From a phage, in the sequence record PZ445426.1: DNA of 58,342 nucleotides; one strand, written 5' to 3'. This document shows positions 14,620 to 57,170 of this stretch, one piece after another (the stretch's first letter is position 1; each line of letters starts with the position of its first letter). A model generated the notes under the pieces. It was not told the origin of the DNA and made no database searches. It worked only from the letters and a program-made list of their open reading frames with translations. The translations under genes were made by a program, and so were the position numbers.

Positions 14620-17258
14620 TGCCACCAGCAATAATTGGAGCAGCAATAGCTTTAGGTGCTTCCGCTGCCGCTGCGGCGGGGTGGATTGCTACGGGTGTAG
14701 CTTTAGCTATTGGTATGGCTGCAACTGCGGCGGGTGCTCTTTTAACTAAGACACCTAATATGAACTTTAATGCTTATAAAGGTCAACAAGAGCGTAAACA
14801 GGTTTTACGAGCAGCCGCAGCGTCTCGAACAGTAGTGTATGGCACAACGGTCGCTTCCGGAGTTATGACGTTTGCTGAGGAGCAGCCTGGAGATCAGGAC
14901 GAAGACGAACTCCTGCATATGGCTCTTGTTGTAGCTTCACATCCATTGGAGGGAATTGGTGATATTTGGCTTGGGGATGACCTTGTACAGACTTTCGAAC
15001 AGTATGTTACTTGGGAATTCCATAACGACCGTCAGACTGTAGATCCATTTATGTTAAGCAATTGCCCTTCCTGGAAAGAGGATATGATCGGGAAAGGGAT
15101 TGCATGGCTTCGTATTAGCTTTAAATTTAATGCGGAAAAATTCCCGTCTGGTTTGCCAAATATTAAGCTTCTTAAAAGAGGTCGCCGTGTATATGATCCT
15201 CGTTCTGGTTATACCATATTTAGCGATAATGCAGCGTTAGTGATACTTGATTACTTCCGCACGTATTTAAAGCGCAAAGATGAAGATATTAACTGGGACC
15301 AATTCAAAGAAGCGGCTAACATCTGTGATGAATACGTCAATAACGCTGATGGTTCTACAGAGCGCCGTTATAAAATCAACGGTGAATTTGAAGTAGATGA
15401 AGCCCCATCCAAAATTCTGGATGCTATGTTGCAAGCTTGTGGTGGTGAGCTAACGTATGTAGCGGGTAAACACGGTCTTCTGGTTGGCGCATATTACGGC
15501 CCAGCAACAATGACGCTGGACGAAAGTTGTATTGCTGGGGATATTAAAATTGTTCCAGAGACTTCTTATAAGGAGCGCACCAACACCATCACAGGGACAT
15601 TTATTGATCCAAAGCAAAACTATGTTGAAGCGGACTTTCCTCCAGTTGTGGTTAAGGAATGGGTGGAAAAGGACGGCGGTGAAATAACGCAAGACATGGA
15701 TTTCCGATTTGTAACAAGTGAATATCAAGCCCAACGTTTGTCTAATATTATTCTACGTCGTAAACGTGTTGGCCGTACAATTGAAATTCCTTGTAACATG
15801 AAGGGTTATAAATTTCGTCCAGGAATGTATGTAAAAGTCACCATTACGCAGATTGGCATGAAGAATGTTGAAATGCGCGTTACTAAATGGTCTTTTAACC
15901 CTAAAGGTGGTGTTAACCTTACACTACGTCAAGATTTCCTGGAAATGTGGGACGATGCAATTGGTAAGCCTATGGACAGACCAGATCTTGTAGACTTGCC
16001 AAGTGGTGGTGTTGCCCAACCTCAAAATCTTCAATACCAGATATTGCAGATTAGTGATGTGGTACAGGGGGTATTATCCTGGACCAACATGGGGCAAGTT
16101 GCATATAACCGCGTAGCTGTGCGACAGGGAGGTGTCACTATTTGGACAGCACAAGTCCCCGGCCAAAGCGTTCGTGTCACTGGGTTGCTGCGTGGGTCGT
16201 ATACTGCGCACGTTCAAGCTGTATCGCACAGTGGCGCAATATCACCGGAAGCTTATCTGGAGTTTAATATTCAAGCCCCACCGCCGCCTTCATCTGTCGA
16301 AATACAGAACGGTTATTTTTCTTTAACTCTTATACCAAAGATTGCAGAGCTCACTAGTGTTAGCACACAATTTGATTTCTGGACGTCTGGTGAAACAAAA
16401 CTGCCGTCTGCTAATACAGATGTTGTTGAGCGCGATGCCACCCGTGAAGGTATGGGAACTATATGGCAGAAAAATAACTTACTCAATGACCACACTTATT
16501 ACTGGTATGTAAGAACTATCAATGCCTTTGGGTCGTCCTCGTTTGTGGAAGTTGAAGCTCGTGTATGGGCAGAAACTGCACAGATCATAGAAATTATGGA
16601 TAAAGAGTTTCAAGAAACTGAAACTTTCAAAAACCTCATGGAGACTGTGCAAAAGGTTGATGACGGTGTAACGGAATTGTCCAAAGTAGTTGAAGGACAA
16701 GCTACAAAAATTGAATCGGTTCAGAGTAGTGTGGGTGATGTTGTTGTTACCGTGCAAGAGCAATCGCAAGCACTAGCAGATCTTAATGGTAAACTTTCTG
16801 CTCAATGGGGACAAAAGGTTCAAATAGACAATAATGGTAACAAATATGTTGCAGGTATGCAGTTAGGTATTGAAGGTAGCGGAGGACAATTCCAGTCTTA
16901 CTTTATGGTGAGCGCGGATAACTTTGCTATTTATAATCCTGTAGCAGGAGCAGCACAGCTTGCATTCGCTATTAAAAACGGTCAAAGTTTCTTGCGAGAA
17001 GCGTTTATTGAAAACGGATCGATTACTAACGCTAAGATTGGTAATGTTATCCAGTCCAATAACTGGAATGGTAACGATCAAGGTTGGGCAATTACAAAAG
17101 ACGGTTATTGCGTATTTAATAACGTGACCGTCAGAGGGACCGTTGTTGCTAACGCTGGTCAATTTGGTTTCAATGGAAATGGAGGTATTACAATTGATAG
17201 TAACGGTATTCGTGTTCCGCTATCAGGTGGTGGTGTTGTCATAGTGGGACGATGGTAA
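14619..17258 (+). CDS. tail tip / host specificity protein (lambda J-like)
   Basis: 879 aa from ATG 14619 (GGAGGG RBS; track start 14607 is TTG); hydrophobic Ala/Gly-rich N-terminus, FN3-like segment, large size. Confidence 0.55.
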   Translation: MPPAIIGAAIALGASAAAAAGWIATGVALAIGMAATAAGALLTKTPNMNFNAYKGQQERKQVLRAAAASRTVVYGTTVASGVMTFAEEQPGDQDEDELLHMALVVASHPLEGIGDIWLGDDLVQTFEQYVTWEFHNDRQTVDPFMLSNCPSWKEDMIGKGIAWLRISFKFNAEKFPSGLPNIKLLKRGRRVYDPRSGYTIFSDNAALVILDYFRTYLKRKDEDINWDQFKEAANICDEYVNNADGSTERRYKINGEFEVDEAPSKILDAMLQACGGELTYVAGKHGLLVGAYYGPATMTLDESCIAGDIKIVPETSYKERTNTITGTFIDPKQNYVEADFPPVVVKEWVEKDGGEITQDMDFRFVTSEYQAQRLSNIILRRKRVGRTIEIPCNMKGYKFRPGMYVKVTITQIGMKNVEMRVTKWSFNPKGGVNLTLRQDFLEMWDDAIGKPMDRPDLVDLPSGGVAQPQNLQYQILQISDVVQGVLSWTNMGQVAYNRVAVRQGGVTIWTAQVPGQSVRVTGLLRGSYTAHVQAVSHSGAISPEAYLEFNIQAPPPPSSVEIQNGYFSLTLIPKIAELTSVSTQFDFWTSGETKLPSANTDVVERDATREGMGTIWQKNNLLNDHTYYWYVRTINAFGSSSFVEVEARVWAETAQIIEIMDKEFQETETFKNLMETVQKVDDGVTELSKVVEGQATKIESVQSSVGDVVVTVQEQSQALADLNGKLSAQWGQKVQIDNNGNKYVAGMQLGIEGSGGQFQSYFMVSADNFAIYNPVAGAAQLAFAIKNGQSFLREAFIENGSITNAKIGNVIQSNNWNGNDQGWAITKDGYCVFNNVTVRGTVVANAGQFGFNGNGGITIDSNGIRVPLSGGGVVIVGRW

Positions 17259-52098: not shown

Positions 52099-52350
52099 AT
52101 GTGCAACTCCAGTGCAAGCGCTACACCCAGTACCTCCAGCAATGTGGTTACAGAGGTAAATGCAATGCGATTAGGTCCATATCGCGGCTATTATGGTCGT
52201 GCTGCATGGAATGACGCTACTCAACGTTTTGAAGGCTGGATTATCTGCCCGGAACGTGTTAAATTTCACTCCGTAAAAGAGAAAAATATCGTTCTTAATT
52301 TTCAAAAATGTGTCACTAAATATGTAGAGGAGCAAGAAGAATGCGTGTAA
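52099..52350 (+). CDS. hypothetical protein
   Basis: 83 aa; AAGGAGG RBS. Confidence 0.45.
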   Translation: MCNSSASATPSTSSNVVTEVNAMRLGPYRGYYGRAAWNDATQRFEGWIICPERVKFHSVKEKNIVLNFQKCVTKYVEEQEECV

Positions 52351-52583
52351 AAGACGAGCAAAAGACAGTCGAATACTTCGGAATGCAAATTGTTGTTCCG
52401 GAATGGGTTAAATGGCTTGCTGTCGATGGTAACGGCAAATTATTCGGTTATGAATGTGAGCCCGACATTTTAGTTGATGAAGATTGGGATGAATGGTACA
52501 GCGAAGAAGGCAAATGCCGCTGCATTACAGAAGTCATCCTTGAAGAAGAACATTGGTCACAAACCTTAGTGGAGCTTTTTTAA
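52341..52583 (+). CDS. hypothetical protein (paralog of 52681..52983)
   Basis: 80 aa; shares motif W-x-W-[LI]AVDG-x-GK-x-x-Y-[ED]-x-x-P with the next gene. Confidence 0.45.
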   Translation: MRVKDEQKTVEYFGMQIVVPEWVKWLAVDGNGKLFGYECEPDILVDEDWDEWYSEEGKCRCITEVILEEEHWSQTLVELF

Positions 52584-52680
52584 AATGCATATGGCACATT
52601 ATTGACCCAATTTCCTGGAAGAAGTATAATTATCAATCTATAATGGACTCTACGGAGCCCTTAATTATCTGGAGGTTGTT

Positions 52681-52983
52681 ATGCTGTATTTAGGAATGGA
52701 CGAAACTGGACACGCAATTCCTTCTGTTAACAAGGAGACGCAAGTATTTACTAACTATTACGGGTCTGCTGTCCCTGTTGAGCCCTGGGCTAACTTTATC
52801 GCTGTAGACGCAGACGGTAAAGTTCATTGTTATGACGCTAAACCTTCTTGCTATGAATCTGGTAAGCAATGGATGCTTGGAGTATACGGTTTGCATGTCC
52901 GCTACTGCGGTGAAGTTGACATTGAAGGTATGGACTGGCGCGATACGCTAAGGGAAATCAGAGAATATAGGCTTAACCCATGA
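52681..52983 (+). CDS. hypothetical protein (paralog of 52341..52583)
   Basis: 100 aa; GGAGG RBS; shared motif with the previous gene. Confidence 0.45.
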   Translation: MLYLGMDETGHAIPSVNKETQVFTNYYGSAVPVEPWANFIAVDADGKVHCYDAKPSCYESGKQWMLGVYGLHVRYCGEVDIEGMDWRDTLREIREYRLNP

Positions 52984-53201
52984 AAATATTCATAATACTA
53001 GGCGTTATACTTGCCTTTGTTGTATTTGCAATCGTAGACTCCAAAGAAATGGAGCAGCAAAACTGTCAACGTACTGGTAACAGCCGGGAATATATTGTTT
53101 GGAACAATATTTACGATGCAAAAGGTAATTTTATGTCAATGTACCCACAGTTTATTACTGAGTATGAATATAAATGTGATGACTATAACAGGTGGAGATA
53201 A
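52980..53201 (+). CDS. small membrane-anchored protein
   Basis: 73 aa; N-terminal hydrophobic helix MKIFIILGVILAFVVFAIV. Confidence 0.4.
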   Translation: MKIFIILGVILAFVVFAIVDSKEMEQQNCQRTGNSREYIVWNNIYDAKGNFMSMYPQFITEYEYKCDDYNRWR

Positions 53202-53809: not shown

Positions 53810-54202
53810 ATGCTATTAGTCGTCACCGGAGGTCGAGATTTTAAGCATGTGGAGTATATTTACTCTCAATTGGATAAGCTGCATATGCAAAGAAGGATAA
53901 CCACACTTCGCCACGGTGACGCTGACGGTGTTGACCGGATTTGCGCACATTGGGCAGAGCGCAACGGTATTAAGACAGAAGCGTTCCCTGCCCCGTGGGA
54001 CAATCTTTCCTTACCAAATACCAAGATACGGTATAACGCCAAAGGTGCTTATAATGCACAAGCTGGCTCTTACCGCAATCAATTAATGCTGGATACCGAT
54101 CCTAAACCAGATCACGCTATTGTGTTTCCTGGCGGAGCTGGTACTATGGATATGTACAGACGGATTAAAGCATCCGGTATTCCTTACACTTTAGCGGAGT
54201 AA
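53810..54202 (+). CDS. LOG/SLOG-like Rossmann-fold protein
   Basis: 130 aa; VVTGGRDF and FPGGAGT match the GGxG / PGGxGT signatures of LOG/DprA-type nucleotide-binding proteins. Confidence 0.4.
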   Translation: MLLVVTGGRDFKHVEYIYSQLDKLHMQRRITTLRHGDADGVDRICAHWAERNGIKTEAFPAPWDNLSLPNTKIRYNAKGAYNAQAGSYRNQLMLDTDPKPDHAIVFPGGAGTMDMYRRIKASGIPYTLAE

Positions 54203-55364: not shown

Positions 55365-55550
55365 ATGACCAAACTATACGCCGGATTGTTTTTATTTGCG
55401 ACGTTAATGTTCGCTGGGCTTTATACCTATACAGTAGTCGAACAACCTTCCACGGTTATCCGAATCTTTGCAAGTACAGGGCTTTGTATCTGTCTTATTC
55501 TATTTGTTTTATGCATTGTTATTATCCAAGACCAAAGGAAAATTAAATGA
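55365..55550 (+). CDS. small two-helix membrane protein
   Basis: ATG 55365 with AGAGGGG RBS; two hydrophobic segments. Confidence 0.4.
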   Translation: MTKLYAGLFLFATLMFAGLYTYTVVEQPSTVIRIFASTGLCICLILFVLCIVIIQDQRKIK

Positions 55551-56008
55551 CCACAATTGCGTTTGATGGGAAAGTATTAGCTGCGGACCGTGGAGTTATG
55601 CGCGGGGAAGTTGTGACTGCTTATAAGAAAGTTCATAGCGTAAATGGACATCGTGGACGGTTTTTACTGGGCTTGTGCGGCCTTACAGCATTTACCGATC
55701 AGGTGTTGCGTTATTTTAATAGCGCGGAACCTGTTAAGTTCCCTGATATTAAGCTTTACAGCAAAGATGATTACGGGCAAACTTGCGGTCTTGCGGTTAC
55801 TCCGGAAGGTACTTGCCATTTTATTTATAATGATGGTACTTTGAGCGAACCCATGCTGGACGGATGGGGATCTGAGGGTAGCGGTTGTGTGTTTGCTGCT
55901 GGCGCGTTAGCTGCTGGTGCAAGTGCGAGCGAAGCTATTGAGTTAGCAATTAAACACACCACATGCGCATTCCTGGGAGTTGATACAATATCATTTGAGG
56001 GTTTTTAA
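55547..56008 (+). CDS. HslV-like / proteasome beta-type Ntn-hydrolase protease
   Basis: N-terminus MTTIAFDGKVLAADRG (Thr directly after Met), KKV, and GSEGSGCVFAAGALAAGASASEAIELAI resembling the HslV GSGG...AL...A.DIAE.A region. Confidence 0.55.
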   Translation: MTTIAFDGKVLAADRGVMRGEVVTAYKKVHSVNGHRGRFLLGLCGLTAFTDQVLRYFNSAEPVKFPDIKLYSKDDYGQTCGLAVTPEGTCHFIYNDGTLSEPMLDGWGSEGSGCVFAAGALAAGASASEAIELAIKHTTCAFLGVDTISFEGF

Positions 56009-56269
56009 ATGACTACATTCAGTCATCTGATCCCACCTGCTTATCATAGTAAGGTAGTTGACCACGGGACTCATGTTGTAATTGGTGGCGAAATCTTTAT
56101 CACAGATAACGAGGAAATCGCCATTGCAATTATTGACAGCACTCAGCATGACTTTATGGTTATCCTGCAACACGAACCCGATAACTTCACTTTTTACTCC
56201 AGCTACGGGGTCGATAAAGGTGGAAAAGATCTTGTTAGCTGGTACATTAGCGAGTGGTTTGACGGGTAA
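56009..56269 (+). CDS. hypothetical protein with HslV-like N-terminus
   Basis: 86 aa; starts MTT and has GTHVVIGGE like the HslV N-terminal strand; too short for a full fold. Confidence 0.35.
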   Translation: MTTFSHLIPPAYHSKVVDHGTHVVIGGEIFITDNEEIAIAIIDSTQHDFMVILQHEPDNFTFYSSYGVDKGGKDLVSWYISEWFDG

Positions 56270-56351
56270 TCTCCTTAGATCAATTCTCCTTGCGCCGTAT
56301 CAAGTTTCTCTGTTACCCTTGAGTGGTTCATGTCAAGCGGAGGAACTCGAT

Positions 56352-56789
56352 ATGGCACTTCAACCTCGTGGTATTCGTAATAACAATCCAGGCAATATTC
56401 GCTGGGGTGACAATTGGCAGGGCTTAGTTCCTGCTGATAAGCGGACCGATAAATCTTTTGCTCAATTCACGCAACCGATTTACGGCATTCGTGCACTAGC
56501 GAAAATCCTGACAAACTACACCAAACGTGAAGGCCTGCCAAATGTGGGTAAGAAAAACATCGACACTGTACGTGAAATTATCGCTCGCTGGGCACCGCCT
56601 AACGAAAACGATACGGAAGCGTATATTCGCTCTGTTGCCAAAGCAATTGGTGTTCAACCCAACGATCCAATTAATGTCTTTGACAAGGCAATTATGTCAG
56701 GATTGGTGAAAGCAATCATTCGTCATGAAAATGGCATGATGCCCTATACCGACGACGTAATTAACCGCGCTATTGCAATGGTACTTTAA
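56352..56789 (+). CDS. putative endolysin (by position only)
   Basis: ATG 56352 with GGAGG RBS inside ORF 56082..56789; GIRNNNPGNIRWGD motif; immediately upstream of holin/spanins but separated by a terminator. Confidence 0.35.
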   Translation: MALQPRGIRNNNPGNIRWGDNWQGLVPADKRTDKSFAQFTQPIYGIRALAKILTNYTKREGLPNVGKKNIDTVREIIARWAPPNENDTEAYIRSVAKAIGVQPNDPINVFDKAIMSGLVKAIIRHENGMMPYTDDVINRAIAMVL

Positions 56790-56825: not shown

Positions 56826-57170
56826 ATGTTCAATTCACCCAACGAACATTGGGCAGTTCTAGCGGGGTTTGCGTTTATCTCCCTTATTGGGGGAGCTCTC
56901 GGTTATGTCATGCGTACAATAGACGCTGGTAAGAAAGTAAGGGCAAGCATTGCATTTCTTGAAGGCTTATCCGCCGCTTTCTTTGGTGTTATAATGTATG
57001 CGATCTACAGGGAGTTTAACATCAGCCTTTGGTTCGCTTTTGGCCTTGCTGGCCTATTTGCTTGGGCAGGTTCACGTGCTACGCTAAAAGCCCTAACGTC
57101 GCTTATAGCTTCACGGACAGGGATCAAACTCGATTCAGGGGACTGCAAACATGAAAACGATTCTAAATAA
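56826..57170 (+). CDS. holin (three transmembrane helices)
   Basis: 114 aa; three hydrophobic helices and charged C-terminus; GGAGGGAG RBS; followed by spanin pair. Confidence 0.6.
   Translation: MFNSPNEHWAVLAGFAFISLIGGALGYVMRTIDAGKKVRASIAFLEGLSAAFFGVIMYAIYREFNISLWFAFGLAGLFAWAGSRATLKALTSLIASRTGIKLDSGDCKHENDSK

What the first reader, a model, noticed from the sequence alone, without database searches (positions are those of the whole stretch)
52341..52983. Tandem paralogous small early proteins
Seen: adjacent ORFs 52341..52583 and 52681..52983 share PEWVKWLAVDGNGKLFGYECEP versus EPWANFIAVDADGKVHCYDAKP. Inference: a local duplication of a small domain of unknown function, a pattern often seen in anti-defence gene families.
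Basis: partly seen in the sequence, partly recalled or inferred. Interest (0 to 1): 0.4.

Follow-up and report, generated by a model that had tools for sequence, protein, structure and literature searches.

The report
Two divergent copies of orphan phage domain
Two neighbouring small genes of this E. coli phage do encode related proteins, but they are old, very divergent members of a large phage-only protein family of unknown function rather than a fresh local duplication, and nothing yet shows what they do.

Summary
ORF A (52341..52583, 80 aa) and ORF B (52681..52983, 100 aa) exist, and both are real genes under purifying selection (dN/dS 0.15 and 0.20). They are significantly similar: BLASTP E=3e-8, Smith-Waterman z=12, and both match phrog_1972.

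The "local duplication" inference is not supported.
- Each protein has more than 150 non-orthologous family members closer to it than its neighbour.
- The two genes share no DNA similarity.
- B is present in 19/19 Seuratvirus genomes examined. A is present, diverged or absent.
- An unrelated gene separates A and B in all A-carrying relatives except one, SA80RD.

The window is almost certainly phage VogelGryff (Bas25).

Function is unknown. My best inference is a non-catalytic binding module acting on a host or phage macromolecule. Anti-defence is possible for the accessory copy A but untested. "Early" timing is unproven. A near-consensus sigma-70 promoter lies just upstream of B.

The parts
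52341..52583 (+). ORF A. An 80-aa single-domain member of the phrog_1972 family. Identical to bas25_0074 of phage VogelGryff. Strongly acidic (net charge -13, pI 4.2) with 5 Trp. An accessory gene within Seuratvirus.
   Evidence: identity to P0185/QXV85496.1; charge; dN/dS 0.15; presence/absence; AF2 pLDDT 92
52681..52983 (+). ORF B. A 100-aa member of the same family, with a conserved N-terminal extension (MLYLGMD...). Present in all 19 Seuratvirus genomes and contigs examined. pI 4.9.
   Evidence: dN/dS 0.20; AF2 pLDDT 83
52584..52680 (+). 97-bp A-B spacer. It holds the promoter-like site, a 5' leader hairpin and B's ribosome-binding site (GGAGG at 52671..52675). From about 52607 onward it is nearly invariant among relatives. 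Upstream of that point homology is lost.
52602..52630 (+). Sigma-70-type promoter-like site, TTGACC-17 nt-TATAAT (11 of 12 matches). It is the only 11/12 match on either strand of the 58-kb window. The -35 hexamer lies at the homology breakpoint and is not conserved in Seurat, CAjan or RCIP0359. The -10 is invariant in those relatives.
   Evidence: the same spacer is annotated as a promoter in SA80RD
52645..52660 (+). Hairpin GGACTC-TACG-GAGCCC in the leader of B. It has a UACG tetraloop, and in the window one A.C mismatch. It is a perfect 6-bp stem in Seurat, CAjan and RCIP0359.
   Evidence: annotated as a 'terminator' in SA80RD. Its function is not tested.
52980..53201 (+). Downstream 73-aa predicted membrane protein (phrog_8826). 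Its start overlaps B's stop (ATGA). It follows B in the Seuratvirus genomes whose downstream gene I compared (Seurat, CAjan), but not family members in other genera.
52099..52350 (+). Upstream 83-aa ORF (phrog_24875, unknown function). Its end overlaps A's start by 10 nt. It is not a family member.

Best explanation
A and B are two anciently diverged members of one large protein family that appears to be phage-borne. It corresponds to phrog_1972 and satellite PHROGs, and has no Pfam model.

**The domain.** It is about 75 residues long, acidic, tryptophan-rich and all-beta. It is found as a stand-alone small protein, as several separate genes per genome, or as 2-9 tandem repeats within one polypeptide.

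**The two copies.** In this phage (VogelGryff/Bas25-like Seuratvirus) the copies came to lie side by side through the mosaic gain and loss of small genes in a variable slot, not through a recent duplication. B is a core Seuratvirus gene. A is an accessory gene occupying that variable slot.

**Inferred mechanism.** The domain is a non-catalytic binding module made in the cytoplasm. It acts stoichiometrically by binding a host or phage macromolecule, as in host take-over or counter-defence. The two divergent copies would recognise different partners.

**What is shown:** homology, family size and architecture, purifying selection, predicted fold, and distribution.

**What is inferred:** the binding-module function, cytoplasmic location, and early expression.
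For: **Homology:**

**Ancient divergence rather than duplication:**

**Family size and repeat architecture.**
- The search found 1029 representatives at E<=1e-3. Most are 75-100 aa.
- Many proteins carry 2-9 matched stretches, for example P0021 (1003 aa, 9 domains) and P0019 (794 aa, 8).

**Phage context.**
- P0021 lies in a 166-kb phage-like contig of unidirectional small ORFs.
- tblastn hits fall in Seuratvirus, Nonagvirus, Klebsiella siphophages, Wifcevirus, jumbo phages and others.
- BFVD structural hits are all uncharacterised phage proteins.

**Core versus accessory status:** B is in 19/19 genomes. A or a diverged A' is in 9/19.

**Purifying selection:**

**Non-catalytic character.**
- The nearly invariant positions are G, A, D, G, P, W, L, W and L. 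No conserved His, Cys, Ser, Lys or Arg appears in the family consensus.
- No fused Pfam domain was found in the 20 multi-domain members scanned.

**Acidity and Trp richness:**

**Confident common fold for A and B:**

**Promoter-like site and RBS:**
Against: - No experiment, named homologue, conserved gene neighbour across genera or domain fusion points to any partner or pathway.
- B is core and under purifying selection (dN/dS 0.20). No window exceeds 0.61. This looks less like an arms-race anti-defence gene and more like a conserved phage-physiology function.
- The conserved D-x-(D/N)-G turn could bind a metal or ligand, so a small-molecule role is not excluded.
- 'Early' expression is unproven. 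The gene block continues into the lysis genes. The -35 of the promoter-like site is not conserved in most relatives.
- The family HMM used for the window and relative scans included A and B themselves. The PHROG hits are independent of this.
Confidence: 0.5

Rival explanations
1. Recent local tandem duplication followed by rapid divergence. The pair would be an expanding gene family within this phage lineage, driven by an arms race.
For: The two genes are adjacent and co-oriented in the window. They are homologous. Several copies per genome recur in the family: two in 9g and three domain-bearing genes on the 166-kb contig.
Against: - Each copy has more than 150 non-orthologous relatives closer than its neighbour.
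- There is no DNA similarity between them.
- An unrelated gene (phrog_27099) separates A and B in the A-carrying relatives, except SA80RD.
- B occurs alone in 10 of 19 genomes.
- dN/dS is well below 1.
Confidence: 0.05
2. Anti-defence proteins. A, B or both would inhibit a bacterial immune system by binding its sensor or effector, possibly as acidic protein or DNA mimics.
For: - They are small, acidic proteins (A has net charge -13 in 80 aa).
- They lie in a block of small unknown genes.
- A is variably present, absent or replaced by a 47%-identical allele in the same slot.
- The family is spread patchily over unrelated virulent phage groups.
- The B region at residues 52-73 is the most variable part.
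Against: - There is no homology to any characterised anti-defence protein that I could test.
- B is strictly conserved and under purifying selection.
- No window has dN/dS above 1.
- Papers using Bas25 report nothing at these genes. The escape mutants map elsewhere, for example to gp44.
Confidence: 0.2
3. Accessory factors of the phage's own DNA metabolism or 7-deazaguanine modification, or of replication, rather than host-directed effectors.
For: - A third family member sits inside the deazaguanine gene cluster, directly after queE, in SLUR63. tblastn also finds one next to 7-carboxy-7-deazaguanine synthase in ChristophMerian.
- In 9g, WFC and HJK1 the members lie near primase or replication genes.
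- B is core in the genus.
Against: - The family is also found in phage groups for which no deazaguanine genes were seen here, such as Klebsiella siphophages, jumbo phages and Wifcevirus.
- There is no conserved neighbour across genera.
- The window itself has no copy in its modification cluster.
Confidence: 0.15
4. The ORFs are not functional genes, and the similarity is chance or compositional.
For: The proteins are short and annotated only as hypothetical. No Pfam model exists.
Against: - Smith-Waterman z=12.
- PHROG E-values of 1e-21 and 1e-28.
- 1029 family clusters.
- dN/dS of 0.15-0.20.
- Strong ribosome-binding sites.
- Confident AF2 models.
Confidence: 0.01

Closest known systems
PHROG family phrog_1972, with weaker matches to phrog_26007, 23941, 11307, 15430, 21375 and 19703. 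All are 'unknown function'.
   Same: Both A and B match the phrog_1972 profile over essentially the whole domain (E=1.8e-21 and 2.7e-28). The members are small phage proteins.
   Different: The PHROG entry carries no function, fold or description. The repeat-forming behaviour and the size of the family (1029 clusters) are not captured by a catalogue name.
Orthologues in Seuratvirus phages: CPT_Seurat73 (A) and CPT_Seurat75 (B); bas25_0074 of VogelGryff.
   Same: A is 100% identical to bas25_0074 and 80% to Seurat gp73. B is about 94% identical to Seurat gp75.
   Different: In Seurat, an unrelated gene 74 (phrog_27099) separates the two. All are annotated as 'hypothetical protein'.
Small acidic phage inhibitor proteins (a general class; for example Ocr or ArdA-type mimics, named from my own knowledge).
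   Same: Small size, strong negative charge (A: pI 4.2), and location among small genes of a virulent phage.
   Different: There is no sequence or fold relationship. Ocr and ArdA are helical, whereas this domain is predicted to be all-beta. No functional data exist. The resemblance is one of class only.
Beta-propeller blades (Kelch, YWTD, WD40) and the beta-trefoil (FGF1).
   Same: - The motif 'hydrophobic-A-x-D-x-D-G-x-hydrophobic-x-x-Y' resembles blade or trefoil strands.
- A profile search of PDB sequences gives FGF1 at E=1.2.

Membership tests
phrog_1972 (uncharacterised phage protein family) | Significant profile-HMM match covering the domain | tested here: met
   A matches at E=1.8e-21 (residues 6-79) and B at E=2.7e-28 (residues 4-97).
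Recent tandem gene duplicates | Adjacent and co-oriented in the genome | tested here: met
   There is a 97-bp spacer in the window. This adjacency is shared only with SA80RD among the relatives examined.
Recent tandem gene duplicates | The two copies are each other's closest relatives | tested here: not met
   B ranks 193rd among A's hits, and A ranks 196th among B's hits, out of 309 family domains.
Recent tandem gene duplicates | Residual nucleotide similarity, or duplication junctions | tested here: not met
   blastn of A against B with word size 7 finds nothing better than 9-12-nt chance matches.
Anti-defence (counter-immunity) proteins | Homology to a characterised anti-defence protein, or demonstrated inhibition of a defence system | not testable with these tools
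   No anti-defence library was available. PADLOC (defence-side models) gives no hit. No literature covers these genes.
Anti-defence (counter-immunity) proteins | Accessory, variably present gene with signs of diversifying selection | tested here: inconclusive
   A is variably present or replaced by a diverged allele. B is core (19/19). dN/dS is 0.15-0.20, and the highest window reaches 0.61.
Pfam DUF5111 (the UniRef label on Seurat gp73) | Score above the Pfam gathering threshold | tested here: not met
   A and B give no hit at E<=1. Only 3 of 102 family members match weakly, with a best E of 0.017.
SUKH-1 / SMI1_KNR4 immunity-protein superfamily | Score above the Pfam gathering threshold; alpha+beta SUKH fold | tested here: not met
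   There is a single sub-threshold hit in P0019 (19.3 bits against a cut-off of 25.4). The predicted fold is all-beta.
Early (host-RNAP-transcribed) phage genes | Transcription early in infection from a host sigma-70 promoter | not testable with these tools
   There is only a consensus match: TTGACC-17-TATAAT at 52602..52630, the best in the genome. I found no transcriptome for Queuovirinae.

The most novel reading that the evidence does not exclude
The domain is a previously undescribed protein fold. It would serve tailed phages as a portable, repeat-capable protein-binding module. Single-domain versions such as A would be interchangeable accessory inhibitors of host immunity or host physiology. 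The multi-repeat giants would be avidity versions of the same thing. Bas25 would then offer a tractable model, with one core copy and one accessory copy, for defining a new class of phage effector.
Probability: 0.15. Interest if true: 0.7.

Novelty: new member of a known kind. Interest (0 to 1): 0.3.

Why it matters
As first described, a tandem duplication hinting at anti-defence, the finding is mostly ordinary. Phage genomes are full of small paralogous genes of unknown function, and here the duplication is ancient or the two copies were acquired separately.

What deserves some attention is the family itself.
- It comprises about a thousand 50%-identity clusters across unrelated phage groups.
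- It has no Pfam, NCBIfam or PADLOC model.
- Its confidently predicted all-beta fold has no solved structural neighbour.
- It can be concatenated up to nine times in one protein.

The window is the BASEL model phage Bas25 or a near-identical genome. It infects E. coli K-12 and is already used in defence-system screens, so deletion, expression and pull-down experiments are straightforward. These could assign a first function to a widespread orphan domain.

Tried and rejected
**Family libraries.**
- Pfam, NCBIfam and PADLOC scans of A, B, multi-repeat members and other multi-domain members found no family above threshold.
- The UniRef label 'DUF5111' and a weak SUKH-1 hit were checked and rejected.

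**Structure comparisons.**
- A profile search of PDB sequences returned only FGF1 at E=1.2. I rejected the beta-trefoil and beta-propeller leads.
- Foldseek against BFVD returned only uncharacterised phage proteins.
- The AFDB library was not available.

**Gene context and selection.**
- I compared the flanking genes of members in WFC, 9g, HJK1 and SLUR63 with those in the window. No neighbour is conserved across genera.
- Sliding-window dN/dS on 17 B orthologues found no window above 0.61, so there is no evidence of positive selection.
- A search for further copies in the window found none.

**Model phage and literature.**
- I searched phage T4 (148 of 169 kb, six frames) for a named family member. 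The best hit had E=2.1, so there is none.
- Literature searches for the PHROG id, locus tags, pVOG ids, Bas25/VogelGryff and Queuovirinae transcriptomics found nothing on these genes.
- The word-indexed protein search added few sequences beyond close relatives.

Full report
**What the window is.** The 3.5 kb around the finding is 92-96% identical at the DNA level to Seuratvirus phages (Queuovirinae) such as Seurat, CAjan, SLUR75 and Greed.
- ORF A is 100% identical to bas25_0074 (QXV85496.1) of Escherichia phage VogelGryff (Bas25). Its contig length on record, 58342, equals the window length. The window is therefore almost certainly the complete VogelGryff genome, or something nearly identical.
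- The layout is as follows. Terminase and structural genes lie on the + strand from 1 to about 22.7 kb. A - strand block from about 23.5 to 50.8 kb sits where relatives carry replication and 7-deazaguanine genes. A + strand block of small genes runs from about 51.1 kb into the lysis genes near 56-57.6 kb.
- The two ORFs lie in this last block.

**The observation.** A (52341..52583, 80 aa) and B (52681..52983, 100 aa) exist as described.
- BLASTP aligns the whole of A to residues 18-93 of B, with 30% identity and E=3e-8.
- The Smith-Waterman score is 12 standard deviations above shuffles, and 0 of 2000 shuffles reach it.
- Among 787 six-frame ORFs of the window, each protein finds only the other, at E of about 1e-6.
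- Independently, both match phrog_1972 at E=1.8e-21 and 2.7e-28.
- A family HMM finds exactly two copies in the window.
- Both have strong Shine-Dalgarno sequences.
- Orthologue comparisons give dN/dS = 0.15 for A (6 sequences) and 0.20 for B (17 sequences).

**Not a recent local duplication.** Four results argue against it.
- *Rank among family members.* I ranked 309 domains by BLASTP. They were cut from the family representatives, the cluster members fetched, and the two window proteins. B is the 193rd best hit of A, and A is the 196th best hit of B. After removing the roughly 19 and 31 orthologues, more than 150 domains from other 50%-identity clusters are closer to each copy than its neighbour.
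- *DNA similarity.* There is none between the two genes.
- *Distribution across 19 Seuratvirus genomes and contigs*. These are the window, 13 isolates and 5 metagenomic contigs.
  - B is present in all 19.
  - An A-type gene is present in 6: the window, Seurat, slur01, KS_S4, SA80RD and one contig.
  - A 47%-identical A' allele occupies the same slot in 3: RCIP0359, SD04 and one contig.
  - Nothing of the family lies within 1.5 kb upstream of B in the other 10.
- *Adjacency.* Where A or A' is present, one or two unrelated genes separate it from B. In Seurat this is gene 74, which matches phrog_27099. Only the window and SA80RD have A directly next to B.

The side-by-side arrangement is therefore a product of gene gain and loss in a variable slot. 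B is a core gene of the genus, and A is an accessory one.

SLUR63 carries a third member inside the deazaguanine cluster, next to queE. The Nonagvirus 9g has two members about 800 bp apart.

**The family.** An exhaustive profile search of 1.84 billion cluster representatives found 1029 proteins at E<=1e-3 and 104 at E<=1e-10.
- Most are 75-100 aa and consist of the domain alone.
- Many carry 2, 3 or 5-9 copies in tandem. Examples are P0022 (437 aa, 5 matched stretches), P0019 (794 aa, 8 matched stretches) and P0021 (1003 aa, 9 domains).
- P0021 lies on a 166-kb phage-like contig among unidirectional small ORFs. Two further genes there also carry the domain.
- tblastn finds members in Seuratvirus, Nonagvirus, Klebsiella siphophages, Wifcevirus, jumbo phages (GAP32, CBB), phAPEC8-like phages, 9NA and Proteus phages.
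- The family consensus is: V-x-Y-F-G-x(4)-V-P-x-W-A-x-Y-I-A-x-D-x-D-G-x-V-x-x-Y-x(3)-P ... W ... D-L-E-G-x-D-W-x-x-T-L-x-E.
- The nearly invariant positions are Gly, Ala, Asp, Gly, Pro, Trp, Leu, Trp and Leu. No conserved His, Cys, Ser, Lys or Arg appears in the family consensus.
- Domains are acidic (median pI 4.9) and Trp-rich (3.9%). A has net charge -13 and pI 4.2.
- No Pfam, NCBIfam or PADLOC model matches A, B or the multi-repeat members tested. Ten further multi-domain members also have no Pfam hit.
- In a Pfam scan of 102 single-domain members, the only family hit by more than one member was DUF5111, and that only weakly (3 members, best E 0.017).
- The 'DUF5111' label that UniRef puts on Seurat gp73 is therefore not reproducible.

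**Structure.** AlphaFold2 gives the following.
- B: pLDDT 83, pTM 0.78, from a 19-sequence alignment.
- A: pLDDT 92, pTM 0.80, from a 102-sequence alignment.
- Both have the same order of seven beta-strands, followed by a short helical turn.

The fold has no solved relative detectable here. I could not search the AlphaFold database, and I could not run HHsearch against Pfam or PDB70.

**Expression signals.** The 97-bp A-B spacer contains TTGACC-17 nt-TATAAT at 52602..52630.
- This is the only 11/12 sigma-70 match on either strand of the whole window.
- The -10, a second TATAAT, a hairpin and B's RBS are invariant in Seurat, CAjan and RCIP0359. The hairpin is GGGCTC-TACG-GAGCCC, with one mismatch in the window.
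- The -35 lies exactly at the point where homology to those phages ends, and it is not conserved there.
- The authors of SA80RD annotated a promoter and a 'terminator' in the same spacer.

This fits B being transcribed by host RNA polymerase, but it is a consensus match only. I found no transcriptome for Queuovirinae. The same transcriptional direction continues into the lysis genes. 'Early' therefore remains an inference.

**What it most likely does.** No experiment, named homologue, domain fusion or conserved neighbour across genera gives a function. From the anatomy, the best-supported reading is a non-catalytic binding module acting on a host or phage macromolecule, with different copies having different partners. 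The anatomy in question is:
- small and cytoplasmic (no signal peptide or transmembrane segment visible in the sequences);
- acidic and aromatic-rich;
- no conserved catalytic-type residues;
- able to be repeated many times in one chain;
- several divergent copies per genome.

I give this about 0.5. Within it, an anti-defence role is plausible for the accessory, replaceable copy A (about 0.2 overall). It is less so for B, which is core and under purifying selection, with its most variable stretch (residues 52-73) reaching only dN/dS 0.34. A role tied to the phage's own DNA metabolism or modification is a lesser alternative (about 0.15). It is prompted by the third copy next to queE in some relatives.

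**Novelty and verdict.** The genes are already annotated as hypothetical, and the family is catalogued as a function-less PHROG. The finding is therefore a new member of a known but uncharacterised kind. The tandem-duplication and anti-defence interpretation is not what the data show.

The family is nonetheless a sizeable orphan domain with a confident predicted fold and no solved neighbour. It sits in a genetically tractable model phage, which makes a first functional assignment feasible. Interest: 0.3.

Noticed in passing
window 52602..52630 (+): TTGACC-17-TATAAT is the only 11/12 sigma-70 consensus match on either strand of the 58-kb genome. Its -35 hexamer lies exactly at a homology breakpoint with related phages, whereas the -10 and the whole leader are invariant. 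Loss of the intervening gene seems to have created or improved a promoter for B.
   Followed up: partly
window 52645..52660 (+): There is a conserved leader hairpin with a UACG tetraloop just upstream of B's ribosome-binding site. It is GGGCTC-TACG-GAGCCC in relatives, and the window has one A.C mismatch. It is annotated as a terminator in SA80RD. It could be an attenuator, a stabiliser or an RNase site.
   Followed up: no
L004 3968..4267 (SLUR63); also ChristophMerian (hit H94): Some Queuovirinae carry a third family member (100 aa) inside the 7-deazaguanine gene cluster, immediately downstream of queE. The window has no copy there.
   Followed up: partly
L005 8001..11012 (P0021); P0019; P0022: Giant versions of the domain exist. 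P0021 has 9 tandem copies in 1003 aa, P0019 has 8 in 794 aa, and P0022 has 5 in 437 aa. They lie on phage-like contigs. The 166-kb contig also has two further genes with the domain (L005 16931..17812 and 16144..16590).
   Followed up: partly
L010 4635..4877 (phage 9g): A second family member (81-aa ORF, E=4e-14) lies in a stretch of phage 9g that has no annotated CDS, between 9g_00027 and 9g_00026.
   Followed up: no
window 53810..54202 (+): This 130-aa protein has a YAcAr (YspA/cpYpsA-related SLOG) domain (Pfam E=1.2e-17). It is labelled 'GTP-binding domain' or 'putative DNA binding protein' in relatives. It is a possible nucleotide-binding protein in the same small-gene block.
   Followed up: no
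window 52980..53201 (+): The stop codon of B overlaps the start (ATGA) of a 73-aa protein with an N-terminal hydrophobic segment (phrog_8826). It follows B in the Seuratvirus genomes I compared (Seurat, CAjan). This suggests translational coupling within this genus only.
   Followed up: partly
window 56082..56789 (+): This is a 235-aa ORF between the gene labelled 'peptidase HslV family' (55547..56008) and the holin (56826..57170). Its C-terminal 150 residues match endolysin or transglycosylase PHROGs (phrog_873, E=2e-63). It is preceded by an ~85-residue N-terminal part with no match. Seurat's endolysin gene is only 438 bp.
   Followed up: no
B orthologues, residues 52-73 (window 52834..52899): This stretch, the predicted beta5-beta6 region, is by far the most variable part of B among Seuratvirus orthologues, with up to 5 residue types per column. 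It is flanked by almost invariant segments. dN/dS rises to 0.34-0.61 there but stays below 1.
   Followed up: yes
search_dna_similar 'phages' collection: VogelGryff itself did not appear among the megablast hits, although the window matches its length and its gene bas25_0074 exactly. That record seems to be absent from the phage collection searched.
   Followed up: no
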